Source: Escherichia coli (lineage in GTDB: Bacteria > Pseudomonadota > Gammaproteobacteria > Enterobacterales > Enterobacteriaceae). From it: DNA of 64,000 nt. The notes beneath the pieces were generated by a model, which saw nothing but the letters and a program-made list of their open reading frames with translations, had not been told where the DNA came from and searched no databases. Below, piece by piece: positions 46,160 to 55,882 of the stretch (position 1 is its first letter; each line of letters starts with the position of its first letter). The stretch lies in the NCBI RefSeq assembly GCF_024298765.1, contig NZ_CP101210.1; one strand, given 5' to 3'. The position numbers and the translations under genes were made by a program.

Positions 46160-47667
46160 TGGCAATTCTTGATGATGTGATTGGCGTTTTTTCACCAGGA
46201 TGGAAAGCGGCAAGGCTGCGTTCCCGAGCGGTGATCCAGGCTTATGAGGCCGTAAAAACGACGCGGACACACAAAGCCCGACGGGAGAACCGAACTGCCG
46301 ACCAGTTAAGCCAGTACGGGGCCGTGTCGTTACGTGAGCAGGCCCGTTACCTTGATAACAACCACGATCTGGTCATTGGTGTATTTGACAAGCTGGAAGA
46401 ACGGGTGGTGGGGAAAAACGGGATTATTGTCGAGCCACATCCGGTATTACGCAATGGTGCCATTGCCCGTGACTTGGCAGCGGAGATACGTACCCGATGG
46501 AGTGAATGGTCTGTCAGTCCGGAAGTCACCGGGCAGTTTACCCGTCCGATGCTGGAACGTCTGATGCTGCGTACCTGGCTGCGCGATGGTGAGGTGTTTG
46601 CCCAGATGGTTTCCGGGCGCATAAACAGCCTGACGCCTTCTGCCGGTGTTCATTTCTGGCTGGAGGCGCTCGAGCCGGACTTTATTCCCATGACCAGTGA
46701 TGAGAGCAACAGGCTGAATCAGGGCGTGTTTGTTGATGACTGGGGGCGTCCCGAAAAATATCTGGTGTATAAAAGTCGTCCTGTATCCGGACGGCAGATG
46801 GAAACCAAAGAAGTGGATGCAGAGCGAATGCTGCATCTTAAATTTGTTCGCCGTCTGCACCAGATGCGCGGGACGTCTTTATTGTCCGGTGTGCTGATCC
46901 GCCTCAGCGCCCTGAAAGAGTATGAAGATTCTGAGCTGACTGCAGCAAGGATCGCCGCTGCTCTGGGGATGTACATCCGGAAAGGCGACGGACAGAGCTA
47001 TGAAACGGATGGTAATGACAGCAAGGAGAATGAACGCGAGCTTACCATTCAGCCAGGCATTATTTACGACGATCTGAAACCCGGCGAAGAAATCGGAATG
47101 GTGAAGTCGGATCGTCCCAATCCTAACCTTGAAACTTTTCGTAATGGTCAGTTGCGTGCCGTGGCGGCGGGCAGTCGTCTGAGTTTTTCCAGTACGGCAC
47201 GCAACTATAACGGCACTTACAGCGCCCAGCGTCAGGAACTGGTTGAGTCTACTGATGGCTACCTGATCCTGCAGGACTGGTTTATTGGTGCCGTCACCCG
47301 CCCGATGTATCGTGCATGGCTGAAACAGGCTGTGGCATCCGGTGTTATCAGGCTACCCCGCGATCTTGACCGTTCTTCACTGTATACCGCGGTGTATTCC
47401 GGACCAGTGATGCCGTGGATTGACCCTGTTAAGGAGGCTGAGGCCTGGAAAATCCAGATTCGTGGTGGAGCGGCGACAGAATCAGACTGGGTACGTGCTG
47501 GTGGTCGTAATCCGGATGATGTCAAACGTCGGCGCAAGGCCGAAATTGATGAAAACCGCAAGCTGGATCTGGTATTTGATACCGATCCGGCCAGTGATAA
47601 AGGAGGCAGCAGTGCCGCAACGAAACGACAGGAGCCGCAGCACACCGACGACCAGTCCGAAGAATAA
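46159..47667 (+). CDS. Portal protein (gpB-like, 502 aa)
   Basis: ATG overlaps the gpW stop; size and position typical of a lambda-like portal. Confidence 0.85.
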   Translation: MAILDDVIGVFSPGWKAARLRSRAVIQAYEAVKTTRTHKARRENRTADQLSQYGAVSLREQARYLDNNHDLVIGVFDKLEERVVGKNGIIVEPHPVLRNGAIARDLAAEIRTRWSEWSVSPEVTGQFTRPMLERLMLRTWLRDGEVFAQMVSGRINSLTPSAGVHFWLEALEPDFIPMTSDESNRLNQGVFVDDWGRPEKYLVYKSRPVSGRQMETKEVDAERMLHLKFVRRLHQMRGTSLLSGVLIRLSALKEYEDSELTAARIAAALGMYIRKGDGQSYETDGNDSKENERELTIQPGIIYDDLKPGEEIGMVKSDRPNPNLETFRNGQLRAVAAGSRLSFSSTARNYNGTYSAQRQELVESTDGYLILQDWFIGAVTRPMYRAWLKQAVASGVIRLPRDLDRSSLYTAVYSGPVMPWIDPVKEAEAWKIQIRGGAATESDWVRAGGRNPDDVKRRRKAEIDENRKLDLVFDTDPASDKGGSSAATKRQEPQHTDDQSEE

Positions 47668-47680
47668 TTCCTGGTTCAGG

Positions 47681-49639
47681 ATGCAGGCTGGTCACCAGAG
47701 TGACGCGGATATTTATATTTATGACGAGATTGGTTTCTGGGGTGTTACAGCGAAGCAGTTTATCAGTGATCTGAATGCACTGGGCGATATCACCCACATT
47801 AATCTCCATATTAATTCACCGGGTGGCGATGTCTTTGAAGGCATCGCCATTTTTAATGCGCTGAAAACACATGGAGCGTCCATTACCGTTTATGTCGACG
47901 GTGTGGCGGCGTCAATGGCGTCGGTCATTGCGATGGTGGGAAACCCGGTCATTATGCCGGAAAACACTTTCATGATGATTCATAAACCATTTGGCTTTAC
48001 GGGCGGTGATGCGGAGGACATGCGCACCTATGCCGACCTGCTCGATAAAGTTGAGGCGGTTCTGTTACCCGCTTATGCACAGAAAACCGGGAAAACCACC
48101 GATGAAATTGCTGCCATGCTGGCGGATGAGACCTGGATGTCCGGTGCCGAATGTCTGGCACATGGATTTGCTGATCAGGTAACGCCAGCCGTTAAGGCAA
48201 TGGCATGTATTCAGTCAAAACGTACAGAGGAATTTAAAAAGATGCCGGAATCCATTCGAAACATGATTACTCCGCCACGCAACAGTGCTCCACGCGTACA
48301 GGATGATGAACCTGCAGCCTCCCGGACGCCAGTGCAGGCAGCAGCACCCGTGGTGGATGAAAACAGTATCCGTGCGCAGGTACTGGCAGAGCAAAAAGCG
48401 CGTGTAAACGGTATTAATGATCTGTTTGCCATGTTTGGCGGGCGTTATCAGACGCTGCAGGCTCAGTGTCTTGCCGATCCTGAATGTTCGCTGGAGCAGG
48501 CCCGCGAAAAGCTGTTGAACGAGATGGGGCGCGAGTCCACGCCATCCAATAAAAATACCCCGGCTCATATTTATGCCGGTAACGGTAATTTTGTGGGGGA
48601 CGGGATCCGCCAGGCGCTGATGGCGCGTGCCGGATTTGAAAAAACCGAACGTGATAATGTCTACAACGGGATGACCCTGCGTGAATATGCCCGTATGTCA
48701 CTGACTGAACGGGGTATTGGGGTTTCCAGTTATAACCCGATGCAGATGGTCGGTGCGGCGTTCACACACAGTACGTCTGACTTCGGTAATATTCTGCTGG
48801 ATGTTGCGAACAAAGCCATTCTGCAGGGCTGGGAAGATGCTCCTGAAACCTATGAACAGTGGACGCGGAAAGGTCAGTTGTCTGATTTTAAAATTGCCCA
48901 TCGTGTGGGTATGGGGGGCTTCAGTGCTCTGCGTCAGGTGCGTGAAGGGGCGGAATATAAATACGTCACCACCGGAGATAAACAGGCCACTATTGCACTG
49001 GCGACCTATGGCGAGCTGTTCAGTATCACCCGTCAGGCCATTATCAATGATGATCTGAATATGCTGACCGATGTCCCGATGAAGCTGGGCCGTGCGGCGA
49101 AATCCACCATTGCCGATCTGGTTTATGCCATTCTGACGTCTAACCCGAAAATCTCCACAGATAATGTAAGTCTGTTCGATAAAGCGAAACATGCAAACGT
49201 ACTGGAGAGCGCTGCAATGGACGTGGCATCGCTGGATAAAGCCCGCCAGTTGATGCGCGTTCAGAAAGAGGGGGAGCGTCATCTGAATATTCGTCCTGCG
49301 TTCGTACTGGTACCGACGGCGATGGAGTCTGTTGCTAACCAGGTCATTCGCTCCTCAAGTGTCAAGGGGGCTGACATTAACGCCGGTATTATTAACCCGG
49401 TGAAAGATTTTGCGACCGTTATTGCAGAGCCTCGTCTTGATGATAACAGCCAGACCACCTTCTACCTGGCTGCGTCCAAAGGCTCCGATACGATTGAAGT
49501 GGCTTATCTCAACGGTGTGGATACGCCATATATTGATCAGATGGAGGGCTTCAGTGTGGATGGCGTGACAACGAAAGTGCGTATTGACGCCGGTGTCGCG
49601 CCAGTTGATCACCGCGGTCTGGTGAAATGTACGGCGTAA
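47681..49639 (+). CDS. Fused prohead protease (ClpP/S49-like) and HK97-fold major capsid protein (652 aa)
   Basis: N-terminal third has ClpP-like features (INSPGGDVFEGIAIFNAL, MASVIAMVGNP); C-terminal two-thirds resembles a major capsid protein. Confidence 0.78.
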   Translation: MQAGHQSDADIYIYDEIGFWGVTAKQFISDLNALGDITHINLHINSPGGDVFEGIAIFNALKTHGASITVYVDGVAASMASVIAMVGNPVIMPENTFMMIHKPFGFTGGDAEDMRTYADLLDKVEAVLLPAYAQKTGKTTDEIAAMLADETWMSGAECLAHGFADQVTPAVKAMACIQSKRTEEFKKMPESIRNMITPPRNSAPRVQDDEPAASRTPVQAAAPVVDENSIRAQVLAEQKARVNGINDLFAMFGGRYQTLQAQCLADPECSLEQAREKLLNEMGRESTPSNKNTPAHIYAGNGNFVGDGIRQALMARAGFEKTERDNVYNGMTLREYARMSLTERGIGVSSYNPMQMVGAAFTHSTSDFGNILLDVANKAILQGWEDAPETYEQWTRKGQLSDFKIAHRVGMGGFSALRQVREGAEYKYVTTGDKQATIALATYGELFSITRQAIINDDLNMLTDVPMKLGRAAKSTIADLVYAILTSNPKISTDNVSLFDKAKHANVLESAAMDVASLDKARQLMRVQKEGERHLNIRPAFVLVPTAMESVANQVIRSSSVKGADINAGIINPVKDFATVIAEPRLDDNSQTTFYLAASKGSDTIEVAYLNGVDTPYIDQMEGFSVDGVTTKVRIDAGVAPVDHRGLVKCTA

Positions 49640-51305: not shown

Positions 51306-51316
51306 AGGAGGTGGCA

Positions 51317-52060
51317 ATGACCACACCAAATCCACTGGCAAAAACGAAAGGTGCGGGAACGACGTTCTGGATGTACACCGGCAAGGGCGATGCGTTTGCG
51401 AACCCTTTATCGGACACTGACTGGCTGCGTCTTGCGATGGTGAAGGATCTGCAACCTGGCGAAATGACCGCTGATGCAGAAGATGACACTTATCTCGATG
51501 ATGAAGATGCAGACTGGAAAACGACAACCCAGGGGCAGAAATCCGTCGGTGATACTTCGGCGACGCTGGCCTGGCGTCCGGGTGACAGCGGGCAGAAAAA
51601 ACTGGTTCAGTTGTTCGACTCCGGTGAAGTCTGCGCGTTTCGTATCAAATATCCCAACGGCACTGTTGATGTTTTCCGTGGCTGGCTGAGCTCACTGGGT
51701 AAAACCATTGCCTCAAAAGACGTGATGACCCGCACAGTGAAAATCAGCGGTGTGGGGCGTCCGTATCTGGCAGAGGAAGGCACTGAAACAGTGAGCGTTA
51801 CCGGGCTGACGGTGGCACCGGCATCTGCCAGTGTAAAAGTGGGAGCAACCACCACGCTGACCTTTACAGTAAAACCTGACGGAGCCAGTGACAAAGCGAT
51901 CAGTGTGCATTCGACAGATCCACAGACTGCCACGGTGACCCTGAACGGGCTTGTGGCCACGGTGAAAGGCGTGAAGCAGGGCAGTGTCAGCATTGTGGGC
52001 ATGACTTCTGACGGCGATTTTGTGGCAGTGGCTGCGGTGGCTGTCAGCGCCGCAGGTTAA
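51317..52060 (+). CDS. Major tail protein (gpV-like, 247 aa)
   Basis: KGAGTTFWMYTGKGDAFANPLSDTDWLRLAMVKDLQPGEMTA...YLDDEDADW...NGTVDVFRGW matches recalled lambda gpV; AAGGAGG RBS. Confidence 0.92.
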   Translation: MTTPNPLAKTKGAGTTFWMYTGKGDAFANPLSDTDWLRLAMVKDLQPGEMTADAEDDTYLDDEDADWKTTTQGQKSVGDTSATLAWRPGDSGQKKLVQLFDSGEVCAFRIKYPNGTVDVFRGWLSSLGKTIASKDVMTRTVKISGVGRPYLAEEGTETVSVTGLTVAPASASVKVGATTTLTFTVKPDGASDKAISVHSTDPQTATVTLNGLVATVKGVKQGSVSIVGMTSDGDFVAVAAVAVSAAG

Positions 52061-52080
52061 CAGGACGATACTCATCATTT

Positions 52081-52105
52081 GCCCCGGTTATCCGGGGCTT
52101 TTTTG
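52081..52105 (+). terminator. Hairpin with U-tract after the major tail gene
   Basis: GCCCCGG-ttat-CCGGGGC followed by TTTTTT. Confidence 0.45.
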
Positions 52106-52120
52106 CAGGTGGAGAACATG

Positions 52121-52507
52121 ATGTTTCTGAAACAGGGCACGTTTAATTATGAAAAGCAGTCCGTGGTGCTCAGTGAGCTGTCCGGGCTGCAGAGAATTGA
52201 ATATCTGGCGTTTGTTCAGCAGCGAACGGCAAAGTTTGATGCCGAAGAGGGAGAACTGCCGGAGGCTGAACGACAGATTGCTTTTCTGCGGATGGGGATG
52301 GATATCAATGCCTGGCTGGTTTCCCGCTCACTGTGGAATGCGGAACAGTCTCAGGATGTTGAGACGCTTTGCGCATCCGTTATTACAACATGGTCGTATG
52401 ATGCCCTGGGAGCGGGGGCGGAGATGGTTCTGTCGCTGAGCGGTATGGGAGCCATTGAGAATGCCGGGGATTTGGAGCATGAGGTGCTGACGCCGGAAAA
52501 GTCCTGA
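52121..52507 (+). CDS. Tail assembly chaperone (gpG-like)
   Basis: MFLKQGTF... with ...LSELSGLQRIEYLAF resembles lambda gpG; GGTGGAG RBS. Confidence 0.8.
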   Translation: MFLKQGTFNYEKQSVVLSELSGLQRIEYLAFVQQRTAKFDAEEGELPEAERQIAFLRMGMDINAWLVSRSLWNAEQSQDVETLCASVITTWSYDALGAGAEMVLSLSGMGAIENAGDLEHEVLTPEKS

Positions 52508-52845
52508 CGCGGGAAATGCAGTTTGTCATGCGGCTTGCCCGGGAGTTCCGGCGGGCAGACTGGCGGCGGATGCTGTCGGAAATGTCGGCCACTGAGCTTG
52601 GTGAGTGGGGCGATTATTTCCGGATGCAGAGCTTCAGTGATGTGTGGATGGATGCGCAGTTTGCCTCGCTGAAGGCATTGATCGTGAGAATGGTGTCCGG
52701 TAGCAGTGATGCTGCGGTGGCTGATTTCAGCCTTTTACCGGAAGAGAACGGGATACCGGAGCGAACGGACGAAGAACTGATGCATCTTGGGGAAGGTATT
52801 TCCGGAGGTGTGCGTTATGGACCAGATAGCCAACCTGGTCATTGA
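52495..52845 (+). CDS. gpT-like portion of a G-T fusion reached by -1 frameshift
   Basis: Frame -1 relative to G is open from the A-AAG site at the end of G through to 52845; G/GT is a conserved arrangement in lambda-like tail modules. Confidence 0.6.
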   Translation, partial: GKVLTREMQFVMRLAREFRRADWRRMLSEMSATELGEWGDYFRMQSFSDVWMDAQFASLKALIVRMVSGSSDAAVADFSLLPEENGIPERTDEELMHLGEGISGGVRYGPDSQPGH

Positions 52846-55800
52846 TTTGGGGATTGATGCGGCAGAGTTTAAAAATGAAATTCCCCGTATCAAAAACCTT
52901 CTGAATGGTGCAGCCAGCGATGCAGAACGGTCTTCTGCCCGTATGCAGCGTTTTATGGAGCGTCAGACTCAGGCCGCCCGGCAGACAATGCAGGCGGCTT
53001 CTTCGGCTGCAACAGCCGCATCCGTCCATGCGCAGACGGTGGAGAAGAGCGCACAGGCTCATGAACGCATGGCCCGCGAGGTGGAGCAAACCCGCCAGCG
53101 TATGGAGGCACTGAGCCAGAAAATGCGCGAGGAACAGGCGCAGGCCATGGCTCTGGCGGAGGCTCAGGATAAAGCGGCTGCCGCGTTTTATCGTCAGATT
53201 GACAGTGTGAAACAGGCCAGTGCGGGGCTGCAGGAATTACAGCGTATTCAGCAGCAGATCCGACAGGCCAGAAACAGTGGCGGGATTGGTCAGCAGGATT
53301 ATCTGGCGCTGATTTCTGAGGTTACGGCGAAAACCCGTGTTCTTACGCAGGCTGAGGCAGAGGCTACCCGACAGAAAGTGGCGTTTATCCGTCAGCTTAA
53401 AGAGCAGGCAACCCGCCAGAATCTTTCTTCTTCTGAGTTGCTTCGTGCTAAGGCTGCCCAGCTGGGGGTAAGCAGTGCTGCAGAAGTGTATATCCGCAAA
53501 ATGGAGCAGGCAGGAAAAGCCACGCATTCGCTGGGTCTGAAAAGTGCAGCGGCCCGCCAGGAGATAGGCGTTCTGATAGGTGAACTGGCTCGCGGCAATT
53601 TAGGTGCGCTGAGGGGATCCGGGATAACGCTGGCTAACCGTGCCGGATGGATAGACACACTGATGTCACCGAAAGGCATGATGCTGGGCGGGGTTATTGG
53701 CGGTATTGCCGCGGCCGTCTATGGTCTGGGTAAAGCCTGGTATGATGGTCAGAAGGAGGGGGAAGAATTTAACCGCCAGTTGTCGCTGACGGGGCATTAT
53801 GCCGGAGTCACTGCCGGGCAGCTGTGGACGCTCAGTCGTGCTATTTCCGGGAATGGTATTACGCAACATGCTGCAGCCGGTGCGCTGGCTCAGGTGGTGG
53901 GGAGTGGTGCATTTCGTGGAAACGATATCGGTATGGTGGCGAGAGCTGCCGCACAGATGGAGCGATCGGTTGGCCAGTCGGTCAGCGATACCATAAATCA
54001 GTTTAAGCGGCTGAAGGATGATCCTGTAAATGCCGCGAAGGCTCTGGACAATGAGCTGCATTTTCTTACTGCCACTCAGCTTGAGCAGATACGCGTCCTT
54101 GGGGAACAGGGGCGGTCCAGTGATGCGGCACGGATAGCCATGTCTGCACTGGCAGAGGAAACCGGTCGGCGTACTGCGGATATTGATAATAACCTCAATG
54201 CGCTGGGCAGTACGCTGAAGTATCTGTCTGATTTATGGAGTAGTTTCTGGGATGCGGCCATGAATATTGGTCGTGAAGACTCGCTGGATGAACAGATTTC
54301 CGCTTTACAGGAGAAAGTGTCGCGGGCGAAAAGACTCCCCTGGACGGCATCATCTTCTCAGGTTGAGTACGATCAGCAGCGTCTTAACGAGCTTCAGGAG
54401 AAAAAACGCCAGAAGGATTTGCAGGATGCAAAAGAGCAGGCAGAGCGCAATTATCAGGAGCAACAGAAACGCCGTAATGCTGAAAATGCTGCACTGAACC
54501 GGATGAATGAAACGGAAGCAGCACGACATCAGCGTGAAATTGCGCGTATTAATGCCATGCAGTACGCCGATCAGGCTGTCAGGGATGCGGCGATACAACG
54601 TGAAAATGAACGTTACGAGAAAGCCCTGGCATCCGGTAAGAAAAAAACACGCGAACCCCGTAATGATGAGGCCACCCGGTTATTGCTGCAGTACAGTCAG
54701 CAACAGGCACAGGTGGAAGGACAGATTGCTGCTGCCAGACAGTCAGCAGGCATTGCCACGGAAAGGATAACAGAAGCGCATAAACAGCTTCTGGCTCTGC
54801 AGCAGCGCATCAGCGACCTGGACGGGAAAAAACTGACGGCAGATGAAAAGAGTGTGCTGGCCCGTAAAGATGAACTGATTCAGGCACTGACGCTGCTGGA
54901 TGTAAAACAGCAGGAGCTTCAGAAACAGACGGCACTCAACGAGCTGAAGAAAAAAACAATTCAGCTGACCAGTCAACTGGCTGAAGAAGAGCGCGCTCAG
55001 CGTCAGCAACATGACCTGGATATCGCCACGGTGGGTATGGGTGATCAGCAGCGGCAGCGATATCAGGTACAACTGAGTCTTCGCCAGAAATACCAGCAAC
55101 AGCTGGAGCAGTTGAGGCGGGATAGTGAGCAGAAAGGAACATATAACACGGATGACTACAGAAAGGCCGAGCAGGCGCTGACGGAGAGCCTGAACCGACA
55201 ACTGAATGAGAATCGCCGTTACTGGCAACAGCTTGAAGTTGTGCAGGGTAACTGGAAAAACGGAGTCCTGCGTGCATTTCAGGATTTTACCGTGGATGCA
55301 GATAATACGGCAGGAACAGCAGAACAGGTGTTCTCGTCAGCCTTCAGCAACATGGGAAATGGCCTGGCAACTTTTGTCACTACCGGCAAACTCAATTTCA
55401 AATCCTTCACCTCTTCTGTGCTGTCAGATATGGCGAAAATCCTGGCGCAGGCAACCATGATGAAATCGATAAAAGGGATTGGCAGTGTACTGGGATTTGA
55501 TCTCAGCAGCCTTTCCCTGAATGCCAATGGGGGGATTTATCAGTCTGCTGATTTGAGTCGTTACAGTGGCACGGTGGTTAACCGTCCGACGTTTTTTGCT
55601 TTTGCAAAAGGCGCGGGTGTGATGGGGGAAGCGGGGCCTGAAGCCATTCTGCCTCTGCGTCGTGGTGCTGACGGTAAGCTGGGGGTTGTGGCGGATATTG
55701 GCGGTTCAGGTATGGCGATGTTTGCCCCGCAGTACAACATCGAGATCAATAACGATGGCACGAACGGGCAGATAGGTCCGGCTGCCCTGAAGGTGGTTTA

Positions 55801-55882
55801 TGACCTTGGGAAAAAAGCGGCAGCGGACTTTATGCAACAGCAGGCCCGTGATGGTGGTCGGTTAAGTGGAGCATATCGGTAA
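52817..55882 (+). CDS. Tail tape measure protein (gpH-like, 1021 aa)
   Basis: Long coiled-coil-rich Ala/Gln/Glu/Arg protein; GGAGGTG RBS; position after G-T. Confidence 0.85.
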   Translation: MDQIANLVIDLGIDAAEFKNEIPRIKNLLNGAASDAERSSARMQRFMERQTQAARQTMQAASSAATAASVHAQTVEKSAQAHERMAREVEQTRQRMEALSQKMREEQAQAMALAEAQDKAAAAFYRQIDSVKQASAGLQELQRIQQQIRQARNSGGIGQQDYLALISEVTAKTRVLTQAEAEATRQKVAFIRQLKEQATRQNLSSSELLRAKAAQLGVSSAAEVYIRKMEQAGKATHSLGLKSAAARQEIGVLIGELARGNLGALRGSGITLANRAGWIDTLMSPKGMMLGGVIGGIAAAVYGLGKAWYDGQKEGEEFNRQLSLTGHYAGVTAGQLWTLSRAISGNGITQHAAAGALAQVVGSGAFRGNDIGMVARAAAQMERSVGQSVSDTINQFKRLKDDPVNAAKALDNELHFLTATQLEQIRVLGEQGRSSDAARIAMSALAEETGRRTADIDNNLNALGSTLKYLSDLWSSFWDAAMNIGREDSLDEQISALQEKVSRAKRLPWTASSSQVEYDQQRLNELQEKKRQKDLQDAKEQAERNYQEQQKRRNAENAALNRMNETEAARHQREIARINAMQYADQAVRDAAIQRENERYEKALASGKKKTREPRNDEATRLLLQYSQQQAQVEGQIAAARQSAGIATERITEAHKQLLALQQRISDLDGKKLTADEKSVLARKDELIQALTLLDVKQQELQKQTALNELKKKTIQLTSQLAEEERAQRQQHDLDIATVGMGDQQRQRYQVQLSLRQKYQQQLEQLRRDSEQKGTYNTDDYRKAEQALTESLNRQLNENRRYWQQLEVVQGNWKNGVLRAFQDFTVDADNTAGTAEQVFSSAFSNMGNGLATFVTTGKLNFKSFTSSVLSDMAKILAQATMMKSIKGIGSVLGFDLSSLSLNANGGIYQSADLSRYSGTVVNRPTFFAFAKGAGVMGEAGPEAILPLRRGADGKLGVVADIGGSGMAMFAPQYNIEINNDGTNGQIGPAALKVVYDLGKKAAADFMQQQARDGGRLSGAYR

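What the first reader, a model, noticed from the sequence alone, without database searches (positions are those of the whole stretch)
52440..52520. Tail chaperone G-T frameshift region lacking a canonical slippery heptamer
The T frame is -1 relative to G and is open from 52495 across the G stop at 52505-52507, as expected for a programmed frameshift making the G-T fusion. However, the sequence at the end of G is CCG GAA AAG TCC TGA rather than the lambda G GGA AAG heptamer, so slippage would have to occur on A AAG alone or by a non-standard mechanism.
Basis: partly seen in the sequence, partly recalled or inferred. Interest (0 to 1): 0.35.

Follow-up and report, generated by a model that had tools for sequence, protein, structure and literature searches.

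The report
Lambda-type G–T tail-chaperone frameshift site
This is the well-known programmed -1 ribosomal frameshift that joins a lambda-like prophage's two tail-assembly chaperone genes (G and T); it uses a slightly imperfect slippery sequence, G GAA AAG, that many related phages share and that the phage N15 record already annotates, so it is real but ordinary.

Summary
G (52118-52507) is a lambda gpG homolog. The -1 frame carries a gpT homolog and is open from 52483, not 52495, across the G stop at 52505-52507. The sequence is CCG GAA AAG TCC TGA.

The shift site is the heptamer G_GAA_AAG (52495-52501). It sits at the position homologous to lambda's G_GGA_AAG. It is the only Z_ZZN site in the 25-nt overlap.

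The site is not peculiar to this prophage. The N15 GenBank record annotates the same heptamer as the slippery sequence. HK225, mEp213, Eeyore and Gifsy-2 also have it, as do about 34% of complete E. coli genomes that carry this G-T module.

Across 13 diverged lineages, CCG-GAA-AAG are the only 3 of 24 invariant-residue codons with no synonymous change. The first G is kept in 35/35 distinct junctions of this clade and 43/44 of the N15 clade. That favours tandem slippage over A_AAG slippage alone. tRNA-Lys would move from AAG to AAA, and tRNA-Glu from GAA to GGA with a central G·U pair.

No downstream RNA structure is conserved. An upstream Shine-Dalgarno-like GAGGTG is only suggestive.

Verdict: already known, low interest. 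No frameshifting efficiency has been measured.

The parts
52118..52507 (+). Gene G: tail assembly chaperone, 129 aa plus stop (lambda gpG homolog)
   Evidence: Pfam Phage_TAC_2 E = 1.8e-39. Annotated as 'tail chaperone GpG-like protein' in phage Ayreon and 'phage tail assembly chaperone G' in RefSeq.
52481..52486 (+). Shine-Dalgarno-like GAGGTG inside G, 8 nt upstream of the heptamer: candidate 5' stimulator, not established
   Evidence: Duplex with the 16S 3' end is -6.9 kcal/mol. Across 13 lineages a positional peak gives mean -6.25 against -2.44 for the gene background, but P is only 0.036 against a synonymous-codon null. It is absent in the N15 clade and lambda.
52480..52482 (+). TGA stop in the T (-1) frame that closes it upstream; 5' limit of the window in which the shift must occur
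52483..52507 (+). 25-nt G/T overlap, the only place a productive -1 shift can happen
   Evidence: In relatives the overlap is 19-49 nt and always contains CCGGAAAAG. The smallest is TTCGCCGGAAAAGTCCTGA.
52495..52501 (+). Shift site G_GAA_AAG, a near-cognate slippery heptamer. The zero frame reads Glu-Lys; the -1 frame reads GGA AAA.
   Evidence: It is the only Z_ZZN candidate in the overlap. It is homologous to lambda G_GGA_AAG. CCG-GAA-AAG are the only 3 of 24 invariant-residue codons without synonymous variation in 13 lineages. Position 1 is G in 35/35 and 43/44 distinct junctions in two clades. The same heptamer is annotated as slippery in N15.
52505..52507 (+). G stop codon TGA, one codon after the shift site
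   Evidence: A stop (TGA or TAG) is kept exactly one codon after AAG in all 35 distinct junctions of this clade.
52501..52845 (+). T-frame coding segment read after the shift (GTC CTG ACG ...), giving a predicted 242-aa G-T fusion; T stop at 52843-52845
   Evidence: Pfam Phage_tail_T E = 5e-15. Fusion built. The fusion aligns end to end with the lambda, N15, mEp213 and Gifsy-2 GT fusions.
52516..52518 (+). ATG used as the start of a separate 'T' CDS in RefSeq and GenBank annotation; probably not the functional start
   Evidence: Annotated start. The Met is replaced by Leu, Ile or Arg in Gifsy-2, lambda, N15 and other lineages, while the invariant LAREF..DW motif lies between the heptamer and the next conserved Met.
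52817..55882 (+). Tape measure gene H, overlapping the 3' end of T; this is the protein that G and GT act on (context)
   Evidence: Pfam TMP_2, TMP_4 and Tape_meas_lam_C. Start taken from the Ayreon annotation.

Best explanation
This is the lambda-type tail assembly chaperone recoding site. Most ribosomes translate G (52118-52507) and stop at TGA 52505, giving the 129-aa chaperone gpG.

A small fraction slips back one base on G_GAA_AAG (52495-52501). A-site tRNA-Lys (anticodon mnm5s2UUU) moves from AAG to the cognate AAA. P-site tRNA-Glu (anticodon mnm5s2UUC) moves from GAA to GGA, keeping Watson-Crick pairs at codon positions 1 and 3 and a G·U pair at position 2. Translation then continues in the T frame (GTC CTG ACG ...) to 52845 and yields a 242-aa G-T fusion. 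By analogy with lambda, the fusion links the tape measure protein to the major tail protein during tail assembly.

What is shown: the gene identities, the frame geometry, the homologous position of the site, and nucleotide-level selection on all of CCG-GAA-AAG, including heptamer position 1.

What is inferred: that the fusion is actually made, how efficiently, and the tandem-slip and G·U details. An upstream SD-like GAGGTG may raise efficiency, but this is weakly supported.
For: 1. G is Phage_TAC_2 and the -1 ORF is Phage_tail_T, lying between lambda-type V and H genes.
2. The -1 frame is closed at 52480-52482. The overlap is 25 nt and holds a single Z_ZZN site.
3. The predicted fusion aligns through the junction with the lambda, N15, mEp213 and Gifsy-2 GT fusions..TPEK|VL.. 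against lambda ..SAGK|VF...
4. 134 of 145 relatives carry CCGGAAAAG plus one codon plus a stop. These relatives were retrieved with peptide patterns that lie away from the junction. Their G identity to the window ranges from 100% down to 42%. The sequence upstream of the motif diverges.
5. Of 24 G codons with an invariant degenerate residue across 13 lineages, 21 vary synonymously. The only three that never vary are CCG, GAA and AAG at the site. Background usage in the same genes is CCG 0.38, GAA 0.53 and AAG 0.41.
6. Heptamer position 1 is G in 35/35 junctions of clade A and 43/44 of clade B. Three of the clade B cases are GCG to GTG changes that keep the G. The preceding codon's third base takes three or four different values.
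7. N15 annotates the identical heptamer as the slippery sequence, and Gifsy-2 annotates T as part of a frameshift hybrid.
8. The same homologous position holds G_GGA_AAG in lambda-like phages and A_AAA_AAG in Stx phages, so every variant ends in A_AAG.
9. G·U-assisted re-pairing of tRNA-Glu from GAA to GGA has been proposed for non-canonical tail-chaperone motifs (PMC10274946).
Against: There is no direct evidence here that the fusion is made.

In a reconstituted E. coli translation system, G GAA AAG was used as the less slippery comparison to G GGA AAG. It gave mainly zero-frame product, because tRNA-Glu must accept a second-position mismatch (PMC6924986).

Without a stimulator, tetramer motifs are barely above background, 0.147% against 0.112% (PMC4066793). 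No conserved downstream structure was found.

One N15-clade relative has A_GAA_AAG (L223). A more distant clade has A/C_GAA_AAG followed directly by TAA (L146, L147). So the first G is favoured but not obligatory.
Confidence: 0.85

Rival explanations
1. Single-tRNA slippage on the tetramer A_AAG only. A-site or P-site tRNA-Lys moves from AAG to AAA, while tRNA-Glu does not re-pair, as at CGA_AAG in IS1222 and B. subtilis cdd.
For: A_AAG is the most shift-prone tetramer in E. coli (PMC4066793; PMC5009743). The distant relatives L146 and L147 have A_GAA_AAG_TAA and C_GAA_AAG_TAA, and L223 has A_GAA_AAG. P-site re-pairing is poor in those, yet the G-T arrangement is kept.
Against: The base before GAA is a synonymous site with no T-frame coding role. 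It is nevertheless invariant in 35/35 junctions and G in 43/44, while adjacent third positions vary. Tetramers need a strong 3' stimulator to exceed background, and none is conserved here.
Confidence: 0.1
2. There is no frameshift. T is translated as a separate protein from ATG 52516, by independent initiation or termination-reinitiation after the G stop, as RefSeq and most GenBank records annotate it.
For: PGAP and several phage records annotate separate G and T CDSs, with T starting at this ATG. The ATG lies 8 nt after the G stop, with a weak GGGA just upstream.
Against: The ATG is not conserved. The position is Leu, Ile or Arg in Gifsy-2, lambda, N15 and several IMG/VR lineages. The T frame stays open back to the heptamer in nearly all relatives, and residues K-[VA]-L..E.xF..LAREF are conserved from the heptamer onward. 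In Gifsy-2 the first Met of the T frame lies after the invariant LAREF..DW motif. The synonymous-site freeze at CCG GAA AAG has no explanation under this model.
Confidence: 0.04
3. Transcriptional slippage by RNA polymerase on the A run produces a -1 mRNA subpopulation.
For: None specific. The site contains AAAA.
Against: The run is only 4 A. From general knowledge, reviewed in PMC5009743, productive transcriptional slippage needs much longer homopolymer runs. The conserved element includes the flanking G and the AAG G, which fits tRNA re-pairing rather than polymerase slippage.
Confidence: 0.01

Closest known systems
Bacteriophage lambda G/GT programmed -1 frameshift (G_GGA_AAG; Levin, Hendrix & Casjens 1993, cited in PMC5009743 and PMC3296357)
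   Same: The gene order V-G-T-H is the same, and so are the Pfam families. T is in the -1 frame overlapping the 3' end of G. The shift site is at the homologous codon pair, ending in A_AAG. No conserved downstream structure was found.
   Different: The P-site codon is GAA (Glu) rather than GGA (Gly), so the heptamer is G_GAA_AAG and P-site re-pairing has a central G·U. The G stop lies 1 codon after the site instead of 6. G and T are only about 33-38% identical to lambda's.
Phage N15 genes 14/15 (AF064539), with HK225, mEp213 and Eeyore
   Same: The heptamer G_GAA_AAG is identical. In the N15 record it is explicitly annotated as 'slippery sequence for -1 translational frameshift'.
   Different: They form a separate clade, about 30% G identity to the window. 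The preceding codon is GCG or GTG rather than CCG. The stop is 6 codons downstream, and there is no SD-like element upstream.
Gifsy-2 STM1039/STM1041.1n (NC_010393)
   Same: It belongs to the same clade (55% G identity) and has the identical ACG CCG GAA AAG TCC TGA junction. Its T gene is annotated as part of a 'G+G' frameshift hybrid protein'.
   Different: The host is Salmonella. It has no ATG at the position used as the T start in E. coli annotations.
E. coli dnaX -1 frameshift (A_AAA_AAG with an SD-like element 10 nt upstream and a 3' stem-loop)
   Same: The A-site event, tRNA-Lys moving from AAG to AAA, is the same. The window has an SD-like GAGGTG 8 nt upstream, or about 11 nt when aligned on the same 16S residue. 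That is within the 9-14 nt range reported for -1 stimulation.
   Different: No 3' stem-loop is conserved. The SD-like element is largely explained by the encoded acidic residues. The P-site codon is not AAA.
A_AAG tetramer sites: IS1222 G_CGA_AAG and B. subtilis cdd A_CGA_AAG (PMC5009743)
   Same: In both, a non-XXX codon precedes A_AAG, and efficiency depends on the 5' codon and its tRNA.
   Different: Here heptamer position 1 is under selection and allows two Watson-Crick pairs plus a G·U for the P-site tRNA. No strong 3' stimulator is evident.

Membership tests
Lambda-type tail assembly chaperone G/GT programmed -1 frameshift | A gpG-family chaperone gene lies between the major tail (tube) gene and the tape measure gene | tested here: met
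   Phage_TAC_2 E = 1.8e-39. Upstream is Phage_TTP_12 plus Big_2; downstream are TMP_2 and Tape_meas_lam_C.
Lambda-type tail assembly chaperone G/GT programmed -1 frameshift | A T-domain ORF in the -1 frame overlaps the 3' end of G and has no conserved start codon of its own | tested here: met
   Phage_tail_T E = 5e-15. The -1 frame is open over 52483-52845. ATG 52516 is not conserved in relatives.
Lambda-type tail assembly chaperone G/GT programmed -1 frameshift | A canonical slippery heptamer X_XXY_YYZ lies in the overlap | tested here: not met
   The only candidate is G_GAA_AAG. Its positions 1-3 are G, G, A rather than X, X, X. It is a one-base variant of lambda G_GGA_AAG at the homologous position. 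The same variant is accepted as the slippery site in the N15 record.
Lambda-type tail assembly chaperone G/GT programmed -1 frameshift | The shift site is at the position homologous to lambda's, and protein similarity continues across the junction | tested here: met
   Alignment A1 shows TPEK|VLTRE.QF..LAREF against lambda SAGK|VFDGELSF..LAREM.
Lambda-type tail assembly chaperone G/GT programmed -1 frameshift | Nucleotide-level (synonymous-site) conservation of the shift site across diverged relatives | tested here: met
   3 of 3 site codons are invariant, against 0 of 21 other invariant-residue codons, in 13 lineages. Position 1 is G in 35/35 and 43/44 junctions.
Lambda-type tail assembly chaperone G/GT programmed -1 frameshift | A G-T fusion protein is produced at a few percent of G and is required for tail assembly | not testable with these tools
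   This needs a reporter assay, western blot or mass spectrometry, plus genetics.
dnaX/IS-type stimulated -1 frameshift | An internal Shine-Dalgarno-like sequence lies 9-14 nt 5' of the shift site | tested here: inconclusive
   GAGGTG is at 52481-52486. There is a positional peak across 13 lineages (P < 5e-5 against gene-internal windows), but P is only 0.036 against synonymous resampling. The element is weak or absent in lineage L036, the N15 clade and lambda. The spacing rule is taken from PMC5009743.
dnaX/IS-type stimulated -1 frameshift | A stable, conserved stem-loop or pseudoknot lies 5-9 nt 3' of the shift site | tested here: not met
   The MFE z-score is -0.32. The consensus structure is -7.3 kcal/mol with a covariation term of +0.27. 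There is no Rfam match.
Single-tRNA A_AAG tetramer frameshift (IS1222 / cdd type) | Only Z_ZZN is required, so the base 3 nt upstream is unconstrained by re-pairing | tested here: not met
   That base, 52495, is invariant or nearly invariant in two clades despite being a synonymous site.

The most novel reading that the evidence does not exclude
G_GAA_AAG may be a deliberately tuned low-slip heptamer rather than a degenerate lambda site. In this reading it relies on a central G·U re-pairing of tRNA-Glu. Both slipping tRNAs carry mnm5s2U34, so the G:GT ratio would be doubly sensitive to host tRNA thiolation. In the cdtI/Gifsy-2 clade the site would be boosted by an upstream SD-like element at dnaX-like spacing and by the conserved stop one codon downstream. 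This would set a G:GT ratio different from lambda's.
Probability: 0.3. Interest if true: 0.4.

Novelty: already known. Interest (0 to 1): 0.2.

Why it matters
The finding matters mainly for annotation. In 1,847 of 5,426 complete E. coli genomes this module is annotated as two separate genes, G and T. The comparative evidence says the real second product is a 242-aa G-T fusion made by a -1 frameshift at G_GAA_AAG.

There is also a modest mechanistic point. A heptamer used in vitro as the less slippery comparison (PMC6924986) is under clear purifying selection as a natural shift site in two phage clades. It is therefore a convenient natural case for testing how much a second-position G·U in the P site costs, and how context compensates. 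Nothing here changes the established picture of G/GT frameshifting.

Tried and rejected
- **Downstream stimulatory structure.** Folding 52502-52580 gave z = -0.32. A 10-lineage consensus fold gave -7.3 kcal/mol with no covariation support. An Rfam scan of 52300-52750 returned only a chance lncRNA hit at E = 0.45. Rejected.
- **Upstream SD-like stimulator.** There is a real positional peak, but it is mostly explained by the encoded acidic residues (P = 0.036 against the synonymous null) and it is absent in the N15 clade. Kept only as a possibility.
- **Independent initiation of T at ATG 52516.** Rejected because the Met is not conserved and conserved T residues lie upstream of the next Met.
- **Transcriptional slippage.** Rejected because the A run is only 4 nt.
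- **Literature.** A search for 'G GAA AAG' found only the EF-G paper. Xu, Hendrix & Duda 2004 (PMID 15469818) and Licznar 2003 (PMC212731) are not held, so I could not check their tables of slippery sequences or the NNA_AAG series. The PRFect supplement has no entry for N15, Gifsy or GGAAAAG.

Full report
**1. What is at the coordinates**

Reading 51900-53100 and listing ORFs shows an ORF in frame 2 that ends ...ACG CCG GAA AAG TCC TGA, with the stop at 52505-52507. It most plausibly starts at the ATG ATG at 52118, preceded by GGTGGAGAA. This gives a 129-aa protein.

The next ORF is in the -1 frame. A script showed that this frame is closed by TGA at 52480-52482 and open from 52483 to 52845.

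**2. Identity of the genes**

Pfam gives these matches:

| Gene | Pfam family | E-value |
|---|---|---|
| G | Phage_TAC_2 (lambda gpG) | 1.8e-39 |
| -1 ORF | Phage_tail_T | 5e-15 |
| upstream gene | Phage_TTP_12 plus Big_2 (lambda gpV type) | 6.4e-67 (TTP_12) |
| downstream gene | TMP_2, TMP_4, Tape_meas_lam_C (gpH type) | 2.7e-49 (TMP_2) |
| next gene | Phage_min_tail (gpM type) | 1e-39 |

The DNA is 97.5-99.9% identical to phages Ayreon, phi458, cdtI and mEp460. It is present at mostly ≥95% identity in 1,847 of 5,426 complete E. coli genomes, including O157:H7. RefSeq annotates G and T as two separate CDSs, with T starting at the ATG equivalent to 52516.

**3. The shift site and its homology**

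The only Z_ZZN motif in the overlap is A_AAG, within G_GAA_AAG at 52495-52501. Slipping there predicts a 242-aa fusion. That fusion aligns from end to end with GT fusions built the same way for Gifsy-2, three IMG/VR lineages, N15, mEp213 and lambda. The junction reads ..TPEK|VLTRE.QF..LAREF here and ..SAGK|VFDGELSF..LAREM in lambda. So the site is at lambda's position.

Across E. coli and Salmonella phages, three heptamers occupy that position:
- G_GGA_AAG in lambda, Turner, PhiR12_1 and PhiR5_1
- A_AAA_AAG in Stx1 and Stx2 phages
- G_GAA_AAG in N15, HK225, mEp213, Eeyore, Gifsy-2 and Ayreon (whose junction is identical to the window's)

The N15 GenBank record carries a misc_feature, 'slippery sequence for -1 translational frameshift', exactly on GGAAAAG. 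Gifsy-2's T gene is annotated as part of a frameshift hybrid.

**4. Is the non-canonical site selected, and as a heptamer or a tetramer?**

Two IMG/VR scans used peptide patterns located away from the junction. Together with the phage records they gave 145 loci and 48 distinct junctions.

Every locus with G identity of about 42% or more (134 loci) has CCGGAAAAG, then one codon, then TGA or TAG. The sequence upstream of the motif diverges almost completely. The overlap windows range from 19 to 49 nt and all contain the motif.

I took 13 representative lineages and aligned their G proteins. 24 columns have an invariant residue with a degenerate codon. 21 of them show synonymous variation. The only three with a single codon in all 13 lineages are Pro-Glu-Lys, CCG-GAA-AAG. 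Background usage in the same genes is CCG 0.38, GAA 0.53 and AAG 0.41.

The G of AAG could be held by T-frame coding (GTC or GCC). The A of GAA is needed for A_AAG. The G of CCG has no coding role in either decoded frame, so its invariance (35/35 distinct junctions) argues that heptamer position 1 matters.

A third scan sampled the N15-like clade as an independent replicate. 43 of 44 distinct junctions have G at that position. Forty are GCG and three are GTG, an amino-acid change that keeps the G. One is GCA (L223). The preceding codon's third base takes all four values.

The simplest reading is tandem slippage. tRNA-Lys moves from AAG to AAA. tRNA-Glu moves from GAA to GGA, with Watson-Crick pairs at positions 1 and 3 and a G·U at position 2. 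The PRFect authors proposed the same GAA-to-GGA G·U re-pairing for non-canonical tail-chaperone motifs (PMC10274946).

The G is not absolutely required. L223 has A_GAA_AAG. A more distant clade has A_GAA_AAG or C_GAA_AAG followed immediately by TAA (L146, L147). Another has GCA_AAA_TAG. These look like stop-adjacent single-tRNA sites.

**5. Stimulators**

Downstream, folding 52502-52580 is no better than shuffles (z = -0.32). A 10-lineage consensus fold is weak, with a positive covariation term. Rfam finds nothing. From memory of Levin et al. 1993, lambda's site also needs no flanking structure. I could not check that here.

Upstream, the window has GAGGTG at 52481-52486, perfectly complementary to the 16S 3' end and 8 nt before the heptamer. 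When aligned on the same rRNA residue this is about 11 nt, against 10 nt for dnaX. The range reported for -1 stimulation is 9-14 nt (PMC5009743).

Across the 13 lineages there is a positional peak of anti-SD affinity. The mean best ΔG is -6.25 kcal/mol, against -2.44 for gene-internal windows (P < 5e-5). Resampling synonymous codons gives -4.98, so P is only 0.036. The signal is therefore mostly a by-product of a semi-conserved acidic residue followed by a G-initial codon. It is absent in the N15 clade and in lambda. I treat it as a possibility only.

**6. How this squares with experiments**

Peng et al. 2019 used AUG GAA AAG (G GAA AAG) as the less slippery comparison to G GGA AAG in a reconstituted E. 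coli system. They saw mainly zero-frame product (PMC6924986).

Sharma et al. 2014 found that tetramers alone are barely above background, and that A_AAG reaches 5.6% only with a pseudoknot (PMC4066793).

Lambda needs only about 4% frameshifting, and its G:GT ratio is sensitive to tRNA-Lys thiolation (PMC3296357). So G_GAA_AAG is probably a lower-efficiency site than lambda's. The actual efficiency in vivo is unknown, and I found no measurement.

**7. Rivals**

| Rival | Main objection |
|---|---|
| A_AAG-only slippage | Disfavoured by the position-1 conservation. |
| Separate initiation of T at ATG 52516 | The Met is not conserved. Conserved T residues, including the invariant LAREF..DW motif, lie between the heptamer and the next Met. 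In Gifsy-2 the first T-frame Met comes after that motif. |
| Transcriptional slippage | Implausible on four A residues. |

**8. Verdict**

The feature is real and correctly recognised as the G-T frameshift region. The 'missing' canonical heptamer is a one-base, near-cognate variant. It is widespread, under purifying selection, and already annotated as the slippery sequence in N15.

Novelty: already known. Interest is low. The residual value is a systematic annotation gap (the fusion is not annotated in RefSeq) and a neat natural test case for P-site near-cognate re-pairing.

Noticed in passing
window 52081-52104 (+): There is an intrinsic-terminator-like hairpin, GCCCCGG-TTAT-CCGGGGC followed by TTTTTT, in the 57-nt gap between the major tail gene V and G. 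The same spot is annotated as a terminator in Ayreon, mEp460 and N15. It may attenuate G/T/H expression relative to V.
   Followed up: partly
RefSeq locus L069 (NZ_CP062749.1), equivalent to window 52516-52845: PGAP annotates 'phage tail assembly protein T' as a stand-alone CDS from an unconserved ATG, and the G-T fusion is not annotated. The same G-T module occurs in 1,847 of 5,426 complete E. coli genomes; every sampled row lists G and T as separate features.
   Followed up: partly
L150, L151 (Stx2d and Stx1a converting phages): Stx phages with lambda-type tails carry the dnaX-like heptamer A_AAA_AAG (TCA AAA AAG) at the same homologous G-T position.
   Followed up: partly
L146, L147, L124, L126, L127, L130, L132 (IMG/VR): More distant G-T relatives put the shift site directly against the G stop. 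Examples are GCA GAA AAG TAA, GCC GAA AAG TAA, GCA AAA TAG and CTG GAA AAA TAG. There is no G at heptamer position 1, which looks like a stop-adjacent single-tRNA shift.
   Followed up: no
L223 (IMGVR_UViG_2648501177_000013): This is the single N15-clade junction with GCA GAA AAG (A_GAA_AAG) instead of G_GAA_AAG. It is a natural position-1 variant worth testing.
   Followed up: no
L004; L030-L032; L131/L162 (IMG/VR): A few relatives have indels that break the G/T register. L004 has an extra G in a G run inside T. L030-L032 have a match 1 nt shorter and T in the +1 frame. L131/L162 is a lambda-like locus whose G frame closes before the heptamer. These may be decaying prophages or assembly errors.
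   Followed up: no
window 52502-52507 and all clade-A relatives: A G-frame stop is kept exactly one codon after AAG in 35/35 distinct junctions, as TGA or TAG. The switch needs two changes that keep Leu in the T frame: CTG A.. becomes CTA G... It is unclear whether this reflects a role for the nearby stop or only a constraint on the G C-terminus.
   Followed up: partly
window 47420-49639 (+): There is a long ORF of 739 aa from the listed TTG. Its N-terminal part looks like a ClpP/S49-type prohead protease and its C-terminal part like a major capsid protein, which suggests a protease-capsid fusion gene. This was judged by eye from the translation and not tested.
   Followed up: no
window 51311-52060 (+): The major tail protein has a C-terminal Ig-like Big_2 domain (E = 2e-11), like lambda gpV.
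   Followed up: no
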